Virus record (IMG/VR): IMGVR_UViG_3300027711_000008
Location: 1-38,472 of that record
DNA: 38,472 bases
From: a virus
Taxonomy: Duplodnaviria > Caudoviricetes
Strand: one strand, 5' to 3'
Notes under the pieces: generated by a model
The model's input: the letters and a program-made list of their open reading frames with translations, nothing else
Databases searched by the model: none
What the model was told of the DNA's origin: nothing
Shown here: piece by piece, positions 279 to 33,220 of the stretch
Layout of the letters: each line of letters begins with the position of its first letter
Position numbering within the stretch: position 1 is the stretch's first letter
Position numbers and translations under genes: made by a program

Positions 279-651
279 TTTTCCCGACTATAAAACCGTT
301 TCGGTTAACAGCTTGGTGCCCTACGCCCGCAACAGCCGCACTCACAGCGATGAGCAAGTGGCGCAGATAGCGGCCTCAATAAAAGAATTCGGATTCCTGA
401 ATCCCATAATTATGGATGGCGAGAACGGCATTATTGCAGGCCATGGACGCGTATTGGCTGCGCAGAAGTTGGGCCTTGAGCCGCTGCCTTGCGTGGGGGC
501 GTCCCACTTGACGGACGCCCAGCGCAAGGCATACGTAATCGTTCGCCGATGGCAAGATTTCACCGGCAAGCAAGCCACGCTGGAAGCGACCGGAGAGACA
601 TTCGAGGAGGTGAGTGATGGCAGAGAAGCGCCGGACCAAGCCGCCTCATGA
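271..651 (+). CDS. ParB/Srx N-terminal domain protein; probably an internally deleted ParB-DNA methyltransferase
   Basis: LVPYARNSRTH...IKEFGFLNPI...IIAGHGRVLAA ParB motif fused directly to VIVRRWQDFTGKQATLE, the usual C-terminal tail of phage ParB-MTases. Confidence 0.75.
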   Translation: MTDFPDYKTVSVNSLVPYARNSRTHSDEQVAQIAASIKEFGFLNPIIMDGENGIIAGHGRVLAAQKLGLEPLPCVGASHLTDAQRKAYVIVRRWQDFTGKQATLEATGETFEEVSDGREAPDQAAS

Positions 652-964
652 GCCGACCAAGGCCACCCGCGACACCGTGCAGATGCACACCCTGGTCGGC
701 ACCACGCAGGGCGACATTGCTCGCGTCATCGGGATTGACGAGAAGACGCTGCGCAAGCATTACCGCGATGAGCTAGATCTAGCGAAGGCGAAGGCCAACG
801 CAACCATTGGTGGTGCGCTGTTCAATAAGGCCAAGGCAGGCGATACCACGGCTATGATTTTCTGGATGAAGACGCAGGCCGGGTGGCGCGAGAAAGCCCC
901 CGAAGGCGGCTCCGACGACATGGCCGCCGCCCTAGCCAAGCTAGCGGAGAGCCTGCCCGGATGA
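614..964 (+). CDS. terS: Terminase small subunit, allele A (HTH type)
   Basis: HTH (TQGDIARVIGIDEKTLRKHY), GDTTAMIFWMKTQAGW motif, immediately upstream of terL with ATGA overlap. Confidence 0.75.
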   Translation: MMAEKRRTKPPHEPTKATRDTVQMHTLVGTTQGDIARVIGIDEKTLRKHYRDELDLAKAKANATIGGALFNKAKAGDTTAMIFWMKTQAGWREKAPEGGSDDMAAALAKLAESLPG

Positions 965-7168: not shown

Positions 7169-7557
7169 TGGGGCTACGCTCTGAAATACAGGCCGATATT
7201 GCTGAGGCATTCGACACCGACTTAGCGGACGCTGTGCAGACGTTTTCAGGTTCGCGAACAGTGCAAGGCAGCTATGACCCGGCAACCGGCACCAGCACAA
7301 CTACCACTGTGACTTATACAGGGCGCGGGGTTTTTGGCTCTTTCAAGGCTGAAGAGCTGAATCAGCATATTGTCAGTACTGATGAGAAGCTATACGGCAT
7401 TTTGCAAAACGAGCTTTTGGTGAACGACGAGCAGGGCCAGCCAACCTCCGTGCCAGCGACCCCTGAGACTAGCGACTTGATCAGTGGCAAGCGGGTTGTT
7501 GCCGTGATGCGTGACCCAGCTTCAGCAACGTGGACAGTAGCCCTACGAAAAACCTGA
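7168..7557 (+). CDS. Head closure/neck protein
   Basis: TAATG coupling to upstream gene; GSYDPATG and DPASATW motifs. Confidence 0.6.
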   Translation: MGLRSEIQADIAEAFDTDLADAVQTFSGSRTVQGSYDPATGTSTTTTVTYTGRGVFGSFKAEELNQHIVSTDEKLYGILQNELLVNDEQGQPTSVPATPETSDLISGKRVVAVMRDPASATWTVALRKT

Positions 7558-7619
7558 TACAATTGTTGCGTGCGGCTAGACCGGCCAGTCGAAAAGGGTA
7601 TCGCCTACCCCTGCCGCAC
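7555..7619 (+). promoter_or_regulatory. Extended -10 promoter plus structured RNA leader of the endonuclease gene
   Basis: TGATACAAT at 7555-7563, then multi-stem element GTGCGGC...GCCGCAC 7570-7619. Confidence 0.5.
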
Positions 7620-7649
7620 TCTTTCAAGGCGATAACACGAGGCGATGTT

Positions 7650-8282
7650 ATGAAGAAATGCACGAATTGTCAGAAGGTTAAGCCGTTTTCGGAATTCTGG
7701 AAAAGGAAGCAGTCTCTGGACGGACTCCAGCACAGATGCAGGGAGTGCTTGAGCAAAAGGTTTTCGGAATATCGCAAATCCAAGCGAGGGATAATCAACC
7801 AGATTTATCGGAACCAGGTTTCAAGCGCAAAGCAAAGAGGTATGGCGCTGCCGGAATATTCCATAGCAGAGTTCTATGACTGGATTATTTCAAAAAGAGC
7901 GTTTCATCGCATTTACAATGAGTGGGTGAATAGCGGATACAAGGAAACTGAAGTACCTAGTTGCGACAGAGTTAATGACAGAATCAGTTACAGGTTTGAC
8001 AATATAAGGGTCGTGGCCTGGAAGGATAATTGGCATAAGATCCATGATGACGTAAAGTCAGGCAGGAACACGAAGAGATGCACTGCTGTAGATCAGCTTT
8101 CTTTAGATGGAAGGCTTGTCCAGAGGCACCACTCTATGTCGGCCGCTGCAAGATCAGTGAAAGGCAGCCAAGGAACGATTTGGAAAGCCGTAAATAATCA
8201 ATCGATTCAGATGTATGGTTATCGATGGCGATATTCTCTGGAAGAAAATGATAACTCAGAGATCATTAAAAAATCCGCGTAA
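7650..8282 (+). CDS. Free-standing HNH-like (homing) endonuclease with N-terminal Zn finger and C-terminal NUMOD1-like HTH
   Basis: CxxC..CxxC, PSCDRVND..Y.FDNIRVV..KDN betabetaalpha-like motif, VDQLSLDG...SMSAAARSV...YGYRWRY; AT-richer than flanks; interrupts neck gene cluster. Confidence 0.7.
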   Translation: MKKCTNCQKVKPFSEFWKRKQSLDGLQHRCRECLSKRFSEYRKSKRGIINQIYRNQVSSAKQRGMALPEYSIAEFYDWIISKRAFHRIYNEWVNSGYKETEVPSCDRVNDRISYRFDNIRVVAWKDNWHKIHDDVKSGRNTKRCTAVDQLSLDGRLVQRHHSMSAAARSVKGSQGTIWKAVNNQSIQMYGYRWRYSLEENDNSEIIKKSA

Positions 8283-21278: not shown

Positions 21279-21850
21279 CACTCGCCCTCCTGTGGTGGTT
21301 GTGGTATTTGAAGCCAGAGCGTTACCGCGCGATGCGGATCGTTTGCGAACCATTCGCTACCCGTGTCTGCGCAAACATCGACATAATCCAACTCATAACC
21401 GTCTACTCCGGGGATGCTCGTCAGAACCTCAAGGTCTGCATCCGGCAGTAAATCATCGACGCTAATCCACTCCGGCACTGCCTGAGCCTTTGGTGGGTGG
21501 GTGTAGCCTTCCAGAACATCCTCACCTTGCTGCGCTATTTCCCATAATGCCGGGCTGCGCTGAACCCGATTCAATAGGCCCAGCTGCACAAGCATGTCCA
21601 GCCAGTGGCGGCCAATATCAACATCCTGTCCATCCTCGGCGCACACGTCGAAACGCCGCAGCTTCTCGATGATCTTGGTGGCGAATTTCGGGAGCGCCAC
21701 CGGCTCCGCATCACCCTGAGCGCGGTCTTCCATATGTTGCTTTGCTAACTCCCAGTCGGATCTCAAGATTGTTGCTCGTTCAACGTCAATACTATTTGTG
21801 CTTGTAAATTGCCGCTGGATTTTCTCAAACGCCTCTCTAATATCACTCAT
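21278..21850 (-). CDS. Modular protein with C-terminal DUF551-like domain
   Basis: RAQGDAEPV / YTHPP / VPEWISVDDLLP...VTLWLQIPQPP. Confidence 0.7.
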   Translation of the reverse strand: MSDIREAFEKIQRQFTSTNSIDVERATILRSDWELAKQHMEDRAQGDAEPVALPKFATKIIEKLRRFDVCAEDGQDVDIGRHWLDMLVQLGLLNRVQRSPALWEIAQQGEDVLEGYTHPPKAQAVPEWISVDDLLPDADLEVLTSIPGVDGYELDYVDVCADTGSEWFANDPHRAVTLWLQIPQPPQEGE

Positions 21851-22055: not shown

Positions 22056-22612
22056 TCGCCCTCCTGTGGTGGTTGTGGGGCTACGTCTAGCAGTGCACGG
22101 GCTCTAGACATCATTGCCTTGTGCTTATACGGCGGATCTTCGTCATAGTCCATTTGATAGATTCGCATAGCCTCAATCAGTTCTTCCAAGCACTCTTTCC
22201 ACCCCTCCGTCACTCCGGCGCTTGGTGGGTGGGTGTAGAGCTGTGACCATTCAAAGCGATCACTAATCTCCGACATCAAGTTGCTATACTTGCTCTCATC
22301 GTCGCTGTTGCTATCATGCAGGTTGCATATAAGCTCACTCTCTACAGCGCACCACGCAACGCAGACCATTGCCTCAGTATTTGAGTCGTCGAACCCACGA
22401 ACAAGGTAGCGCCCCGGCCTGTGTGGTTTTGGTGTCCATACCGGCTCCGCATCACCCTGAGCGCGGGCTTCCAGCAACTCCACCGCCGCATCAATCATCC
22501 TCCCCAACTCCTCAGGCAAAATGCCCGCCTCGTCCATAGTCCGTTCGTCGTCGCCGCGCCGCCATGCGTTGTATTTGCGCAGGTAGGCGGTAATCTCTCT
22601 AACACCACTCAT
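22052..22612 (-). CDS. Modular hypothetical protein
   Basis: YNAWRRG N-module; RAQGDAEPV, LYTHPP, APQPPQEGE linkers. Confidence 0.7.
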   Translation of the reverse strand: MSGVREITAYLRKYNAWRRGDDERTMDEAGILPEELGRMIDAAVELLEARAQGDAEPVWTPKPHRPGRYLVRGFDDSNTEAMVCVAWCAVESELICNLHDSNSDDESKYSNLMSEISDRFEWSQLYTHPPSAGVTEGWKECLEELIEAMRIYQMDYDEDPPYKHKAMMSRARALLDVAPQPPQEGE

Positions 22613-23063: not shown

Positions 23064-23101
23064 GACTTCAACCTCCGTGCATCCAGTGAGAGGGGTTTGG
23101 C

Positions 23102-23575
23102 TTATACTGCATTTTTCGCTTCTCCGTTTTTGGCGTGCCACTCCTTGTGACATTTAGGGCACAACCAGCGTACAACCAACGGCTGCGCATAATCGTCGTG
23201 ATGGCCGTGCAAGCGATTTGGTGATGATCCGCAAGACTCGCATAGTTCTGGTTTTTTGATTCTTCCGGCACGCACTGCATTGCCTAAAAGCACATGCGCC
23301 GCTCGCTTTACGGCGTTCCTTTCAATAAATCTTACCTTTGCCCTTCTGGTAGCATCTTTACCTGCCTTCGTTGATTGATATCTTCTGTGTCGCTCTCTAA
23401 CCCTTGGGTCTTCCTTGAATCTTTTCTTGTCATAGGCCCTATAGTATTCGGCCTTTGCAGCCCTGTTAGCTCTAACCTTTGCCTTCCTGCACTCTTTGCA
23501 GGTGTTGTCATTGGCGTAGAATCCAGTGTCTTCAGGTAGCTCGTCGTTGCACCTATTGCAGATTTTAGTGATCAT
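23102..23575 (-). CDS. Free-standing HNH-like endonuclease (zinc-finger type)
   Basis: N-terminal CxxC..CxxC, basic helix, C-terminal CESC..HGHHDDY..PLVVRWLCPKCHKEWH. Confidence 0.75.
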   Translation of the reverse strand: MITKICNRCNDELPEDTGFYANDNTCKECRKAKVRANRAAKAEYYRAYDKKRFKEDPRVRERHRRYQSTKAGKDATRRAKVRFIERNAVKRAAHVLLGNAVRAGRIKKPELCESCGSSPNRLHGHHDDYAQPLVVRWLCPKCHKEWHAKNGEAKNAV

Positions 23576-23605
23576 AAAAAGCCCTCCGTAGAGGGCATTA
23601 TATCA
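23576..23605 (-). promoter_or_regulatory. Extended -10 promoter and RBS-sequestering/terminator hairpin for endonuclease
   Basis: TGATATAAT (23605-23597), then GCCCTC-TACG-GAGGGC-TTTTT-ATG. Confidence 0.7.
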
Positions 23606-23618
23606 TTGAAAGGTATGT

Positions 23619-24320
23619 TTAGAAAGGAATCAATTATGTTCAGTTAAGGGCGCTAACCTTAACCCGCCTTTCGGCAGCTACCTGTTTCCAGGCAGATCAG
23701 ACCATATCATCACCTACTTGAGGTGGCCCCCGCTTCCACTCGCTTGAGTGTACGCCTTACGGCTGGTCGTTGAACGTTCCCGTTTAGGGCTTCGCTGCTG
23801 ATTGTCTTCGGCTTTATCCGGTCAGAGTTCCCAGCAATTCAAGGGCTTTTCACTGCCGCATCGCTACGGCAGGCGACATTCATTTATCGTCATCAAAATC
23901 ATCTACCGGGGCCAAGCCTCCGCCCGCGCCAGTCGGGGCTGGATTGTTCTGCTGATACTGCTGCTGCGGGCGCTGTGCCGGTTGCTGTGGTTGCGCCTGC
24001 TGGCCTTGCGGCTGGGGACCAACGAGGCTGATCTCGCTAATGCGCAGCGTTACCGAAAAGCCCTGCGTGCCATCGTTTTTCTGGTATTGGCGCGTGCCAA
24101 GCTCACCCGTTACGGCGACCTGCTGGCCTTTAGTGAGGTACTGTATGAGGCCGGATTCGGCGCGCTTGCCGAACAGGGCGCAATCGATCCAAACGGTTTG
24201 TTTGTTGTCACCAAAACCGCTATCAACGGCCAGTGCGATACCGGCAACGGGCGTGCCGTTGGCGGTGTGGTTTACTTGGGCATCACGGCCAATGCGGCCG
24301 ACGGCGGTAAATACGTTCAT
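23619..24320 (-). CDS. ssb: Single-stranded DNA-binding protein, intron-split: join(24320-23886, 23630-23619), 148 aa
   Basis: OB fold (GRIGRD...WIDCALFGKRAE...LTKGQQVAVTGEL), Q/P-rich linker, acidic tail DDFDDD completed by IPF in exon 2. Confidence 0.93.
23631..23885 (-). ncRNA. Group I self-splicing intron (IA-like, no internal ORF) in ssb
   Basis: P (AAUUGCUGGGAA), Q (AAUCAGCAG), R (GUUCAACGACCA), S (AUGAUAUGGUC) elements; P1 U.G pair at 5' splice site, P10, GNRA-capped P2/P9, terminal G; removal restores DDD-IPF-stop. Confidence 0.9.
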
Positions 24321-25198
24321 TTTGAGATCCTTACAGTCCATGAGGTTGTTGCTTGCTTGCGAAACTCATCAGGGTTCAGCCCGGATGCTTTAGCAAGGGC
24401 TTCGGTATCGACTGAGCCCTGTCGGGTAGTCGGGTAGGCCATGAGGCCGCAGCCCTTCGACTTTTTGCCCTCGGCCATTTTGATGAGCGCTTTCTTGAGC
24501 GCGTCTTGTCGTTTTTTGAGCGCCTTCATCTCGCCGTCAATTTCGAGGTATTCGGCGGCATGGTTCGCCCACGCCTCATCCTCTGACATATCGCGTTCGA
24601 GCGGTTCAAGGTGCGGGTTCTCGCCTTCTGGCAGGGTAATCGCGGCCTGGTAGTCGGCCATGAACGCCTCAAGCTCGGGCATGCGCTTTTCTAGCCAGCC
24701 CGCTTCGGCTTCAACCGTTTGCAGGCGGTGCGCATTGGGTGCCCAGGCGAAGTAATCCCAAGTGCCCCGGCCAGTGACAGCCATGCAAAGTTGGATTTGA
24801 GCCATGTAGTGCGGCTGATCTTCAATCGCCTTCAGATTGCCGGAGTACGGACACTTGATCTCAACGCCGTGATCGTCGTTTACGAGCCCGTCAGGGCTTG
24901 CAGCCAGCCATTCGTGTTCGGGGTGCACGATTAGCCCGACCTCATCCACGATATGGCCGGTGACAGCTTCGTACTCGCTCAGAGCGTCGGCTTCGTGCTC
25001 GGTGCCGTACTCGGTTGCCACGTTGCCCTGAAACTCCTTCTCAACCCCGAAGAGCTCCCGCACCATCTCCCGCAACACGTCGTCGCGTGTGGTGTATGGG
25101 TTCAGGCCAAGGATTGAGCCGATGCGGCTGCCGGTGATCCGGCCAACTCGCTGGGCAAACCATGCTTCACTTCTTTGCTCTGCTGGTGCGTTCATCAC
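24317..25198 (-). CDS. YqaJ / lambda-exonuclease family recombination nuclease
   Basis: EQRSEAW...R.GRITGS, G..HE, ASPDG, EIKCP, Y.AQIQ motifs. Confidence 0.92.
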   Translation of the reverse strand: MMNAPAEQRSEAWFAQRVGRITGSRIGSILGLNPYTTRDDVLREMVRELFGVEKEFQGNVATEYGTEHEADALSEYEAVTGHIVDEVGLIVHPEHEWLAASPDGLVNDDHGVEIKCPYSGNLKAIEDQPHYMAQIQLCMAVTGRGTWDYFAWAPNAHRLQTVEAEAGWLEKRMPELEAFMADYQAAITLPEGENPHLEPLERDMSEDEAWANHAAEYLEIDGEMKALKKRQDALKKALIKMAEGKKSKGCGLMAYPTTRQGSVDTEALAKASGLNPDEFRKQATTSWTVRISK

Positions 25199-30212: not shown

Positions 30213-30526
30213 AGCTGCAAAAAGTCTGCGCCCTGTACATGGAAGGATTGCGCCTGCGCGACCAGGCCGCACAACTCAGCCAACACATGCTCGCCAAGAA
30301 GTTTGAGCGCGCGCACAAAACCATCAGCAAGGTCGTAAACGGCATTCCGTGCAATGTCCCTGAAGACGAGCAGAGGTTGATCCGCGAATGCTCGTCAGAG
30401 CGTGACCGGCTGAAGTCGAAAGCCACTGAGCTTTCACTGATGCGCCTATGCACAAAGTACCGGATTTCTCACCACACCGTAGTCGCCGAACTTGAGCGCC
30501 TGGATGCGTGGAGGGCTGCGGCATGA
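30209..30526 (+). CDS. Hypothetical protein
   Basis: Coupled ORF. Confidence 0.6.
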   Translation: MKLQKVCALYMEGLRLRDQAAQLSQHMLAKKFERAHKTISKVVNGIPCNVPEDEQRLIRECSSERDRLKSKATELSLMRLCTKYRISHHTVVAELERLDAWRAAA

Positions 30527-31437
30527 GAGTGATTGACTTGTTTTCAGGCGCTGGAGGGTTCAGTACCGGCGCGCAAATGGCCGGTTGTGATGTTGTTTGG
30601 GCGGCCAACCATTGGCCTGATGCGGTTGAGTGGCACAGCAAGAATCATCCTGACGCGATGCACATCTGCCAAGACTTACACCAGGCCGACTGGTCGAAGG
30701 TTCCGGTGCACGACATGATGCTGGCCTCTCCGTGCTGCCAAGGTCACAGCAAGGCGCGAGGCAAAGCCAAGGGCAACCCGCAGCACGATGCAAGCCGAAG
30801 CACTGCATGGGCGGTTGTATCAGCCGCTGAGTACCACAAGCCGAAAATCATCATCGTGGAGAACGTGCCGGAGTTTCTGGACTGGCAGTTGTATCGCCCT
30901 TGGGAGCTGGCCATGAATGCCCTTGGATACGCCGTAAGCCCGCACATCATCGACGCTGCCGACCTGGGAGCGCCACAGAACCGGATACGCATGTTCCTGG
31001 TACTGACCCAGACCAAATCGCCGCTCCTGCTGAGCCTGCCGAAAATGACTCACAAGCCAGCGACATCGTTCATCGACTTTAAGGCTGGCAACTGGTCATT
31101 GATTGATAAGCCTGGCCGAGCAAAGGCAACGCTTGAGCGCGTAGCTGCTGGCAGATCTGCATTCGGTGATCGCTTCCTGACCTCGTACTACGGGAACACC
31201 AAAACAGGCCGGAGCCTTGACCGGCCAATTGGCACCATCACAACCCGTGACCGGTGGGCAATCATCGACGGTGATCGGATGCGGATGCTATCGCGCTGGG
31301 AATGTCGGGACGCCATGAGCTTTCCAGAGACTTATCAGTTACCGGACAACCACCGACTGGCTGTGCACCTGATGGGTAATGCCGTGTGCCCCGAGCCAGT
31401 AAAACAAATCATCAACGCAGTGAGGCAGGCAGCATGA
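30523..31437 (+). CDS. DNA cytosine-5 methyltransferase
   Basis: DLFSGAGG, SPCCQG, ENV, Q.R.R, GNAV motifs. Confidence 0.92.
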   Translation: MRVIDLFSGAGGFSTGAQMAGCDVVWAANHWPDAVEWHSKNHPDAMHICQDLHQADWSKVPVHDMMLASPCCQGHSKARGKAKGNPQHDASRSTAWAVVSAAEYHKPKIIIVENVPEFLDWQLYRPWELAMNALGYAVSPHIIDAADLGAPQNRIRMFLVLTQTKSPLLLSLPKMTHKPATSFIDFKAGNWSLIDKPGRAKATLERVAAGRSAFGDRFLTSYYGNTKTGRSLDRPIGTITTRDRWAIIDGDRMRMLSRWECRDAMSFPETYQLPDNHRLAVHLMGNAVCPEPVKQIINAVRQAA

Positions 31438-31631
31438 CCCAATGCAAACACTGCCAGATCGGCACACCACTACAACACGGCATCCACATGTGCGAATTCC
31501 ACATGGAGCCGTGCGAGCGCTCAAAAGTCACTCAAAAGTTCAAGCTTGAGCCAATGGAGCGCGACACCTGGCACCAGCCTGCAAAGCGGGTTAAATCGGA
31601 TGCGCCTTTTGTAGTTGGGGGTGGGAGATGA
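31434..31631 (+). CDS. Small Cys/His-containing hypothetical protein
   Basis: MTQCKHC...; ATGA overlaps. Confidence 0.5.
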   Translation: MTQCKHCQIGTPLQHGIHMCEFHMEPCERSKVTQKFKLEPMERDTWHQPAKRVKSDAPFVVGGGR

Positions 31632-33220
31632 GCGCCGCCGTACAGCCTTTGACTGAATCACAATTCTTCGCACCTGCCAGCACGGACATGGTAGATGGCC
31701 TTGTTGGTCGATACCGGTCTGAGCGTGACCGCATGGAGCGTGTCGTTGATTACCTCTCCGGCGATGACTTCAAGTCGGTTGTCAGCTATTTCGAGGATGC
31801 AGCAAGACGCAAGGATCATAGAGCCGGATCTACGCCAAGCTTCCGGCTAGAGCAGGGGGTGGCCGCGCTGAATGCAAGCTATTGGCAGCAAGCCCTGAGC
31901 CTGACCGACGTTCTGGACTTCATGCCGAGCAAGCGCCGTGAAGAGTGGTTCAGCCAGATCCAAAAAATGGAAACGCCGGACTTCGAAGAGTCAACAGTTC
32001 GGGCAACACTTTCTGGAATGCTAGCCGCCCGCATGGACTTCCTTGCCGAAAAGGTTGACGGAATTTTTCGAGCCCTGAGTAAGACCCATATCACCAACCA
32101 GCCGGAAGGGTTTGGAAAGCGCATGATCCTGACCGGCGTCACGGATAGCTGGGGCTCATACGGCCGGCAGCAGACAGGCCACATCAACGATCTGCGCCAG
32201 GTTATTGCTAAATTCATGGGCCGTGATGAGCCGGACTACAACGCCAGCAACCGGGTTGTTGAGATTGCCAGAGAGAATCACCGGGGCGAATGGATAACTG
32301 TAGACGGCGGGGCGCTTCGGGTTCGTTGCTACCTGAACGGCAATGCCCACATTGAGATTCACCCGGACATATCCTGGCGCCTGAACGAGATCCTGCACCA
32401 CCTGTACCCGACCGCCATTCCATCTCGATTCCGGCAGAAGCCGAAGCGCAAGGTAAAAGAATTTACCTTGATGGAAAGACCTTTACCTTTTGCCGTGCTG
32501 GAAGTTCTGCACAGGATGAGACCAGCTTACGACACGGCAGAGCGTAGCCGGAGCATGATCCCGAATACCGTTCGCATAGATGCGCACGGGAAGGACAAGC
32601 ACGTTATTGCTGAGGTTGAGCAGGTGCTGGAGTTGTTGGGCGGCGTGAAGCAGAGCACCAACGCCTACAGCTGGTATCAGTTTGACTACGACCCGGACCC
32701 GGTCATAAAAGAGATCGTGTGCACCGGCGTTATCCCTGACCAGAAAAGCCACCAGTATTACCCGACACCCGAAGGTATTGCGCGGGATGCGGTGGAGTTG
32801 GCCGAGCTTGAGATTGACATGTTGGTGCTTGAGCCTTCAGCCGGAACCGGAGGTCTCGCTGACATAATTCAGAAGTATGCGCCGGTTCAATGCGTAGAGA
32901 TAAGCGGCCTGCACAGTCGTGTTCTTGAGAGCAAGGGCCATGCGGTTCACAAGGTCGATTTTCTCAAGTGGGGTACTGAACACCTATTCCCGCGCATAGT
33001 AATGAACCCGCCTTATAGCCAGGGCCGCTGGCAGGCTCACATCGAACACGCGGCAACCATGCTTCGGCCTGATGGCGTGCTGGTAGCGATCCTGCCATCC
33101 AGCGCAAAAGGCAAAGGGCTTATTCCAGGCTACTCGCACACCTATTCCCGAGTTTACGAAAACCAGTTCAAGGGCGCGTCCGTTGACGTGGTGATCGTGA
33201 AGATGGAGGCGCAATCATGA
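31628..33220 (+). CDS. DUF4942-like domain plus class I SAM-dependent (N6-adenine type) DNA methyltransferase
   Basis: YYPTP, LEPSAGTG, MNPPY motifs; N-terminal LS..H.TN...GFGKRMI domain. Confidence 0.85.
   Translation: MSAAVQPLTESQFFAPASTDMVDGLVGRYRSERDRMERVVDYLSGDDFKSVVSYFEDAARRKDHRAGSTPSFRLEQGVAALNASYWQQALSLTDVLDFMPSKRREEWFSQIQKMETPDFEESTVRATLSGMLAARMDFLAEKVDGIFRALSKTHITNQPEGFGKRMILTGVTDSWGSYGRQQTGHINDLRQVIAKFMGRDEPDYNASNRVVEIARENHRGEWITVDGGALRVRCYLNGNAHIEIHPDISWRLNEILHHLYPTAIPSRFRQKPKRKVKEFTLMERPLPFAVLEVLHRMRPAYDTAERSRSMIPNTVRIDAHGKDKHVIAEVEQVLELLGGVKQSTNAYSWYQFDYDPDPVIKEIVCTGVIPDQKSHQYYPTPEGIARDAVELAELEIDMLVLEPSAGTGGLADIIQKYAPVQCVEISGLHSRVLESKGHAVHKVDFLKWGTEHLFPRIVMNPPYSQGRWQAHIEHAATMLRPDGVLVAILPSSAKGKGLIPGYSHTYSRVYENQFKGASVDVVIVKMEAQS

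What the first reader, a model, noticed from the sequence alone, without database searches (positions are those of the whole stretch)
23102..23885. ORF-less intron plus adjacent free-standing HNH endonuclease: candidate collaborative-homing system targeting the ssb tip
Seen: the intron has no internal endonuclease, but the next gene starts 43 nt after the spliced ssb stop and encodes a zinc-finger HNH-like protein (CESC..HGHHDDY..WLCPKCH). Established: collaborative homing between an ORF-less intron and a neighbouring free-standing endonuclease is known for cyanophage S-PM2 psbA/F-CphI. Inference: the endonuclease may cut intron-less DDDIPF-coding DNA of competing phages (possibly also host ssb), with the intron giving self-immunity by splitting the site. 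ERF and YqaJ exonuclease next door could carry out the repair and conversion.
Basis: inference. Interest (0 to 1): 0.85.

Follow-up and report, generated by a model that had tools for sequence, protein, structure and literature searches.

The report
Intron and nuclease share SSB-tip target
A self-splicing-type intron splits the last codons of a phage single-strand-DNA-binding (SSB) gene, and the nuclease gene next door belongs to a family that almost always sits right behind those same codons in unrelated genes, so the two likely spread together as one selfish unit aimed at a short protein-tail motif rather than at one gene family.

Summary
Observation confirmed. A 255-nt ORF-less group I intron (23885-23631, minus strand; Rfam 80 bits) splits ssb at DDD|IPF*; unspliced, the protein ends DDDK*. 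A zinc-finger His-Me (HNH) gene starts 43 nt after the spliced stop. Extra copies of the IPF-coding DNA sit in the nuclease's promoter region (31 of 69 vs 1 of 69), an I-TevI-like operator signature. Intronless carriers seldom keep the canonical DDIPF* tip (7 of 69 vs 29 of 68). Same-site introns occur in 16 contigs (12 groups) with three unrelated host-gene families. An identical intron+nuclease block sits on three SSBs only 33-42% alike. Against: 69 of 71 tip-linked nuclease genes have no intron, 7 of 12 intron groups lack this nuclease, and no cleavage or splicing data exist. Verdict: a likely collaborative-homing pair inside a larger intronless-homing family aimed at the SSB tip. The scan noted this intron before on other DNA (e1-3661861); the nuclease link is what is added here.

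The parts
23886..24320 (-). ssb exon 1 (OB fold, Q/P linker, ...VDDFDDD); likely start at the ATG overlapping the yqaJ stop
   Evidence: PF00436 E 3.6e-20; phrog_44; relatives start at MN
23631..23885 (-). ORF-less group I intron, 255 nt
   Evidence: Rfam RF00028 80.4 bits; U.G in P1, terminal G, P10 7 of 8; 31 of 55 consensus pairs show two-sided changes across 11 same-site introns
23619..23630 (-). ssb exon 2: Ile-Pro-Phe-stop
   Evidence: sequence; the same exon 2 peptide in all 16 intron contigs, partly imposed by the search pattern
23608..23616 (-). second copy of the IPF-coding motif, likely an operator for the nuclease
   Evidence: motif positions; enrichment 31 of 69 vs 1 of 69; function inferred
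23597..23605 (-). extended -10-like element (TGnTATAAT), likely the nuclease gene's own promoter
   Evidence: sequence; -10-like hexamer in 37 of 69 nuclease spacers vs 2 of 69 controls; not listed by the two-hexamer scan
23576..23596 (-). hairpin plus T5 that holds the GGAGG ribosome-binding site in its stem; terminator-like for read-through from ssb
   Evidence: terminator scan; the fold is lost when the transcript starts a few bases after the -10
23102..23575 (-). free-standing zinc-finger His-Me (HNH) endonuclease gene, 157 aa
   Evidence: phrog_2340; H125, H126, H143, H147 invariant in 107 of 107; model; homologous to I-KsaII
24317..25198 (-). YqaJ-like exonuclease (context; role in homing untested)
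   Evidence: PF09588
25195..25761 (-). ERF annealing protein (context; role in homing untested)
   Evidence: PF04404

Best explanation
A group I intron splits this phage ssb gene between the DDD and IPF codons of its tail tip, and the adjacent gene encodes a predicted HNH homing endonuclease that likely recognises those tip codons, so the intron likely shields the phage's own gene while both would be copied together into intronless phages (collaborative homing). Steps: (1, inferred) the protein binds the ATHCCNTT motif of the IPF codons and nicks or cuts in or near the DD codons just upstream. (2, inferred) The intron separates the two parts of the site at the DNA level, while splicing restores a canonical free DDDIPF end; relatives without the intron reach the same end by altering the tip (DE/SD/DS-IPF, or IPF plus extra residues). 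(3, inferred) In co-infection the break is repaired off the carrier genome with about 30 nt of shared tip-coding DNA on the left and a shared downstream gene on the right, probably by Red-like recombinases such as the neighbouring ERF/YqaJ. (4, inferred) Expression is kept low by a hairpin that hides the ribosome-binding site on ssb read-through RNA, and by self-repression at the second motif copy beside the gene's own promoter. Shown: the anatomy, the positional association, the motif duplication, the tip bias and the shared cassette.
For: (a) 71 of 74 evaluable nuclease clusters lie directly behind an acidic-[ILVM]P[FW] tip (69 intact, 2 intron-split), against 0 of 479 other ORFs in the same loci; the upstream genes belong to several unrelated families. 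(b) An extra ATHCCNTT copy within 63 nt behind the tip in 31 of 69 carriers vs 1 of 69 nuclease-free ssb (shuffles expect about 2; Fisher 2e-10), often between -35 and -10-like hexamers, as for the I-TevI operator (PMC2988022, passages). (c) Canonical DD[ILVM]P[FW]* in 7 of 69 intronless carriers vs 29 of 68 non-carriers (p 1.5e-5, no phylogenetic correction). In Phapecoctavirus all 3 carriers read have an altered tip (DEDIPF* twice, DDDIPF plus 15 aa once), while 2 of 3 non-carriers have DDDIPF*. (d) Intron, spacer and nuclease are 99.6-100% identical in L075, L154 and L168; exon 1 is at background identity (0.56-0.60) beyond 30 nt upstream, the downstream flank is 91-97%, and the SSBs are 33-42% identical. 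(e) This nuclease follows 5 of 12 intron groups vs 5 of 84 intact ssb genes (p 0.002). (f) His-Me active-site residues are invariant, the best fold match is an HNH nicking enzyme (Z 5.9, rmsd 2.5, 64 residues), and there is full-length homology to intron-encoded I-KsaII (hhalign 99.3%, E 9e-21).
Against: No cleavage, binding or splicing data; the eight read sets laid were contigs and showed no spliced joint. 69 of 71 tip-linked nuclease clusters have no intron, so the intron is not needed by the family. 7 of 69 intronless carriers keep the canonical DDIPF* tip, so the proposed immunity rule is not strict, and 39 of 68 non-carriers also deviate from it. One non-carrier (DE16) has the extended tip as well. 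7 of 12 intron groups lack this nuclease, and 2 of them have a different family (phrog_13389) there. The identity block in the L075 group runs past the nuclease into downstream genes, so swapping of the upstream ssb module explains it too. Fold matches are weak (Z under 8; no Foldseek hit at E 0.001). The control and carrier sets differ in taxonomy and are not independent samples.
Confidence: 0.65

Rival explanations
1. The nuclease is an ordinary intronless-homing nickase aimed at the SSB tip that tolerates or nicks both alleles; the intron gives no immunity and only hitchhikes in the conversion tract.
For: 69 of 71 tip-linked clusters are intronless, and 7 of 69 keep the canonical tip. Exon 2 keeps the whole ATHCCNTT motif in intron alleles. 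HNH homing enzymes MobA, MobE, I-HmuI and I-HmuII nick one strand (PMC2988022 section 7); that I-HmuI nicks both alleles is recalled, not checked.
Against: Intronless carriers are depleted of the canonical tip, while all 13 intron loci examined splice to a DD-IPF* or ED-IPF* end with a free Phe (partly imposed by the search patterns). The nuclease is enriched behind intron-split tips.
Confidence: 0.2
2. Intron and nuclease converged independently on a conserved hot spot; the intron moves by another route (another nuclease such as phrog_13389, or reverse splicing), and the adjacency is a by-product.
For: Intron without this nuclease in 7 of 12 groups; L066 and L156 are near-identical phages that share the intron and differ by a 645-nt insert carrying phrog_13389. 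The 5 intron-linked nucleases need 4 changes on the quick tree, no fewer than shuffled labels (42 of 500 as low).
Against: Identical intron+nuclease block on three divergent ssb genes. L064 keeps the intron and the nuclease's spacer up to the ATG (91% to the window) but has lost the gene, so at least one nuclease-free case is a loss.
Confidence: 0.1
3. The protein is a domesticated recombination or replication nuclease that works with SSB and is co-transcribed with it; no homing is involved.
For: Near-invariant position behind ssb in the recombination module.
Against: Present or absent among near-identical phages; only 5 of 84 intact ssb genes have it; it carries its own promoter-like element, sequestering hairpin and target-like repeat; it is homologous to an intron-encoded protein.
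Confidence: 0.05

Closest known systems
Cyanophage S-PM2 psbA intron with free-standing F-CphI (collaborative homing; PMC6083498, passages read)
   Same: ORF-less group I intron in a conserved gene, adjacent free-standing beta-beta-alpha-metal nuclease, proposed intron-based self-protection and joint spread.
   Different: F-CphI uses an Endo VII motif and its cleavage is proven. Here the enzyme is a phrog_2340 zinc-finger HNH, cleavage is untested, the site is three codons from the stop, and it recurs in non-homologous genes.
T3/T7-like phage gene 5 intron with a free-standing endonuclease (Bonocora and Shub 2009; paper not held; seen only as cited in PMC10448857 and PMC3984707 passages) and ICP1 terL intron with a T5orf172 gene (PMC10448857, passages)
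   Same: Endonuclease gene beside rather than inside the intron; nuclease turnover at the locus.
   Different: Those target one homologous gene family; this targets a short linear motif shared by unrelated genes.
T4 I-TevI operator and hairpin control; T4 seg/mob intronless homing (PMC2988022, passages and section 7)
   Same: Target-like operator next to the nuclease promoter, ribosome-binding site hidden in a hairpin on read-through RNA, optional free-standing gene between conserved genes.
   Different: I-TevI is an intron-encoded GIY-YIG enzyme. T4 free-standing enzymes cut hundreds to thousands of bp from their gene; here the inferred target is within about 60 bp of the gene, or one intron length.
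I-KsaII of Kayvirus polA intron (annotated 'intron-encoded, putative endonuclease')
   Same: Full-length homolog with the same two zinc motifs and the HH.DY..PL...WLC..CH core.
   Different: Inside an intron in DNA polymerase, about 27-30% identical; I found no biochemical characterisation (listing only).

Membership tests
Group I intron | Conserved catalytic core scoring above the Rfam cut-off | tested here: met
   80.4 bits vs 50; 5 other same-site introns 52-94 bits
Group I intron | U at the 5' splice site in a U.G pair of P1, terminal G, P10 pairing with exon 2 | tested here: met
Group I intron | Spliced RNA or self-splicing | tested here: inconclusive
   Only contigs of related introns were available; no joint seen
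His-Me finger (HNH) nuclease | His at the end of strand 1 preceded by D/E/H; His/Asn at the helix start and a polar residue at +4 (PMC5714182, passages) | tested here: met
   H126 after H125 in strand 123-126; H143 and H147 in helix 140-150; invariant in 107 of 107
His-Me finger (HNH) nuclease | Omega-loop Asn of the H-N-H motif | tested here: not met
   No Asn between residues 127 and 135; the loop is short. The review notes strongly reduced loops in Endo VII and Hpy99I
His-Me finger (HNH) nuclease | Beta-beta-alpha fold with zinc knuckle | tested here: inconclusive
   Model pLDDT 97 shows the topology; best match Gme HNH Z 5.9, then T5 SciA and EcoKMcrA Z 4.0-4.2; under the Z 8 trust level
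Free-standing homing endonuclease | Optional gene at a fixed position between conserved genes | tested here: met
Free-standing homing endonuclease | Site-specific cleavage of the empty allele and over-inheritance | not testable with these tools
   Indirect only:
Collaborative homing | ORF-less intron with an adjacent free-standing endonuclease gene | tested here: met
Collaborative homing | Enzyme cuts at the intron insertion site | not testable with these tools
   Inferred from the duplicated IPF-coding motif and the position
Collaborative homing | Intron prevents self-cleavage | not testable with these tools
   Inferred from tip bias in intronless carriers
Collaborative homing | Joint inheritance of intron and nuclease | tested here: inconclusive
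   Identical block on three ssb genes, but module swapping is not excluded

The most novel reading that the evidence does not exclude
The few codons that spell the SSB docking tip (DDDIPF) are a portable homing site. One nuclease family, at least one second nuclease-like family and several intron lineages home on this peptide motif and so jump between non-homologous genes and unrelated phage families using about 30 nt of left-hand homology. The arms race reshapes the tip itself (recoded, capped or intron-split), the intron is the solution that keeps a canonical free C-terminal Phe, and intron retention yields a near full-length but tipless SSB, so splicing could also tune partner binding. The same enzyme might nick the host's chromosomal ssb.
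Probability: 0.4. Interest if true: 0.85.

Novelty: new variant of a known kind. Interest (0 to 1): 0.72.

Why it matters
Collaborative homing rests on a handful of cases, each tied to one gene family. Here the inferred target is a short linear motif shared by unrelated genes, which would let selfish elements cross homology barriers and would explain why many phage SSB tips end in odd variants (IPFN, DSDIPF, capped tips). All stages of the proposed route to mobile introns except the last (nuclease inside the intron, not found in my scans) coexist at one site. Cultured E. coli phages with and without the nuclease make the target and immunity rules directly testable. Annotation also misses these genes: the SSB is called with a truncated DDDK end.

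Tried and rejected
Pfam gave no HNH family for the protein or any of 107 relatives. A PDB sequence search gave only PacI at E 0.8. Foldseek had no hit at E 0.001. blastn of the intron region against 50,697 cultured phage records gave only generic intron-core matches, none over 80% of the query; none of the 60 of 644 rows listed was annotated as ssb. Pattern scans: 27 of 33, 18 of 23, 11 of 23 and 3 of 3 (579 prokaryote genomes) matches lacked the intron core next to an IPF-stop exon and were dropped; no ssb-tip intron was found in bacterial or archaeal genomes at that pattern, and no ORF-containing intron at this site in any scan. The patterns would miss introns with other P9 lengths or LPF/VPF tips. 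Reads: eight runs, all contigs, no spliced or intronless joint. A scan for phrog_13389 relatives found nothing, so that family's tip link rests on 3 loci (L156, L159, L291). The Atlas gave only unnamed clusters for the L064-type and phrog_2544 host proteins, and L074's host protein does not match the Phapecoctavirus SSB: their SSB function is inferred from tail and position only. The nuclease tree is a quick, poorly supported one and is not used for dating. The two-hexamer promoter scan did not list the proposed promoter. Literature searches listed no paper on an intron in a phage ssb tip or on a nuclease aimed at it; PMC11878797 has no mention of ssb and PMC5746245 mentions it in another context. 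Subscription papers and supplementary tables of phage intron surveys were not seen and could list such introns.

Full report
Observation. The window is a lambdoid-type phage record (G000, 38,472 nt, 77% complete). On the minus strand the order is erf, yqaJ exonuclease, ssb, intron, nuclease. Rfam finds one RNA family in the window, a group I intron at 23678-23895, 80.4 bits. The sequence fixes its ends at 23885 and 23631: the 5' exon ends in U paired to G in a 4-bp P1, the intron ends in G, and 7 of 8 guide positions pair with exon 2. Splicing would give ...DDFDDD-IPF*; without it the frame stops at DDDK*. The nuclease ATG is 43 nt behind the spliced stop.

The protein. It matches phrog_2340 'endonuclease' (E 6e-41) but no Pfam HNH model. 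An alignment of the window protein with 106 of the 120 listed homologs (of 356 found) gave a model with pLDDT 97: an N-terminal zinc finger, long helices and a C-terminal beta-beta-alpha unit. H125, H126, H143, H147, C112, C115 and C139 are invariant in 107 of 107, the pattern that defines an active His-Me site (PMC5714182, passages); the loop Asn is absent. The best structural match is the Gme HNH nicking enzyme (Z 5.9, rmsd 2.5, 64 residues), with T5 SciA, Hpy99I and McrA below; these are weak scores. A distant full-length homolog is I-KsaII, annotated as intron-encoded in Kayvirus polA. Nuclease activity is therefore predicted, not shown.

Position. I fetched 56 and 80 viral loci of relatives (the second call kept the best 80 of 469). 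They reduce to 90 distinct sequences and 82 clusters at 85% identity; 8 were set aside as partial matches or too near a contig end. Of the 74 left, 69 have an acidic-[ILVM]P[FW] tip ending just upstream, 2 have that tip split by the intron, and 3 have none; 0 of 479 other ORFs in the same loci have such a tip upstream. The upstream genes are canonical SSBs, about 100-130-aa and 200-aa phage proteins and 300-370-aa proteins. All five cultured phages I opened first show the same order. Conversely only 5 of 84 intact phage ssb genes have this nuclease behind them (87 distinct genes set aside), and near-identical Phapecoctavirus and Drexlerviridae genomes differ by its presence. It behaves as an optional element fixed to a motif, not to a gene family.

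What it likely binds. In the 63 nt behind the Phe codon, a further copy of ATHCCNTT (either strand) occurs in 31 of 69 carriers and 1 of 69 nuclease-free controls; shuffles expect about 2. The copies often lie between -35- and -10-like hexamers; a -10-like hexamer is present in 37 of 69 vs 2 of 69. In the window the copy (23616-23608) abuts TGnTATAAT (23605-23597), followed by a hairpin that holds GGAGG in its stem and a T5 run; a transcript starting just after the -10 cannot form it. T4 I-TevI uses this logic: an operator like its homing site over its promoter, and a hairpin over its ribosome-binding site (PMC2988022, passages). I infer that the protein recognises the IPF codons.

Self-protection. 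Intronless carriers have the canonical DD[ILVM]P[FW]* end in 7 of 69 cases, non-carriers in 29 of 68 (p 1.5e-5); 27 of 69 carriers add residues after Phe, against 9 of 68. These tests are not corrected for kinship and the two sets differ in taxonomy. In Phapecoctavirus, where ssb is about 98% conserved, carriers read DEDIPF* (2) or DDDIPF plus 15 residues (1); non-carriers read DDDIPF* (2) or the extended form (1, DE16, with the first bases of the nuclease gene left). All 13 intron loci examined splice to DD-IPF* or ED-IPF*, though the patterns impose part of this. The picture fits a site spanning the DD and IPF codons that a carrier must either alter or split. Seven carriers keep the canonical tip, so the rule is a bias, not a law.

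The intron family. Pattern scans found the same insertion point in 16 distinct contigs including the window's phage: 6 of 33 matches, 5 of 23 (all repeats), 12 of 23 (2 repeats), 0 of 3. Rfam confirmed the five non-window introns; the rest share the core by alignment, with 31 of 55 predicted pairs showing two-sided changes. Host genes are canonical SSB, a roughly 100-aa family with no PHROG or Pfam hit, and phrog_2544. Intron identity is uncoupled from host identity: window vs L064 93% with no protein match, window vs L082 91% with 31% protein identity; L151's intron is about 60% alike and uses a different guide for the same site. Merged into 12 groups, 5 have this nuclease behind exon 2, 2 have phrog_13389, 1 (L064) keeps the spacer up to the ATG but not the gene, and 4 have none; 5 of 12 vs 5 of 84 gives p 0.002.

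Joint travel. In L075, L154 and L168 the intron, spacer and nuclease are 99.6-100% identical, the last 30 nt of exon 1 are 80-93% alike, exon 1 further up is at background (0.56-0.60), and the downstream flank is 91-97%. That is what a recent sweep with a short left arm would leave; swapping of the upstream module among related phages fits as well, since identity runs on downstream. Window, L075, L157 and L162 share intron, spacer and the first 100-130 nt of the nuclease and then diverge, which suggests domain exchange behind a shared left end. One 14-kb contig in run X2 matches ssb at 23929-23960 and then 23072-23089 only about 50 nt further on, a hint of an empty allele in a related phage (18-nt match, sequence not seen). 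No spliced RNA was seen; all laid runs were contigs.

Mechanism and comparison. The best reading is collaborative homing as defined for S-PM2 psbA and F-CphI, where the intron prevents self-cleavage and the free-standing enzyme mobilises it (PMC6083498, passages; PMC3984707 and PMC10448857, passages), embedded in a larger intronless-homing family. It works like that system; membership needs cleavage and immunity data that I could not get. It differs in enzyme family, in a target three codons from the stop, and in spreading across non-homologous genes. A role for ERF/YqaJ follows from what is known of Red-like recombinases (recalled) and is untested; the family also occurs where no such neighbours are annotated. 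Cutting of host ssb is possible because bacterial SSBs end in the same motif (recalled); no tip intron was found in 185,579 prokaryote genomes.

Novelty. Six literature searches listed nothing on an intron in a phage ssb tip or a nuclease aimed at it; subscription papers and supplements were not seen. Within this scan, e1-3661861 described the same intron family on other DNA, and five notes described a capped tip arriving with an endonuclease in rV5-like phages; these are unchecked AI notes and not independent support. New here are the family-wide tip association, the operator-like repeats, the tip bias and the shared cassette. Verdict: new variant of a known kind, interest 0.72, best explanation 0.65.

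Noticed in passing
window 7530-8282 (+): A second endonuclease-like gene (phrog_1035 'endonuclease VII', E 1e-18) between head-closure and neck genes; its N-terminal part also matches phrog_2340.
   Followed up: no
L268 (Aeromonas phage phiA005) about 900-930: ssb stops at DDD*, and the IPF-stop codons follow after a 10-nt insert at exactly the intron insertion point; scar, intron relic or sequencing error.
   Followed up: no
L156 1830-2408 (-), L159 1838-2422 (-), L291 downstream of ssb: A second family (phrog_13389, unknown function; a PD-(D/E)XK-like motif by eye only) sits behind SSB tips; L066 and L156 are near-identical phages without and with a 645-nt insert carrying it.
   Followed up: partly
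L096, L114, L118, L121, L329 downstream of ssb: Other nuclease-like ORFs (judged by eye) directly behind ssb stops, suggesting the tip is a hot spot for several families.
   Followed up: no
L176, L180, L175, L186, L244, L115, L282: SSB tips followed by a similar 10-15-residue extension; FAPIGLQ is shared by a 150-kb myovirus and a 46-kb siphovirus in front of the nuclease.
   Followed up: partly
L281, L284, L292: IPFD, IPFN and IPFS tips with no nuclease of this family behind them; possible relics.
   Followed up: partly
L064 2019-2324 (+); L074 2785-3786 (-); L066 2856-3971 (-): Two unannotated protein families end in the SSB-type tip and host the intron; likely unrecognised phage SSBs.
   Followed up: partly
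L167 about 300-714 (+): A different intron-like element with S-motif and 3' end similar to this family, in front of an IPLE exon of another gene, apparently with an internal ORF.
   Followed up: no
window about 21698-21725 and 22442-22468: A repeated stretch of about 28 nt (RAQGDAEPV in two small genes), and QPPQEGE-type ends in several neighbouring ORFs: modular small early genes.
   Followed up: no
window 30508-31437 and 31628-33220 (+): Two adjacent DNA methyltransferase genes; whether they could protect against the nuclease was not examined.
   Followed up: no
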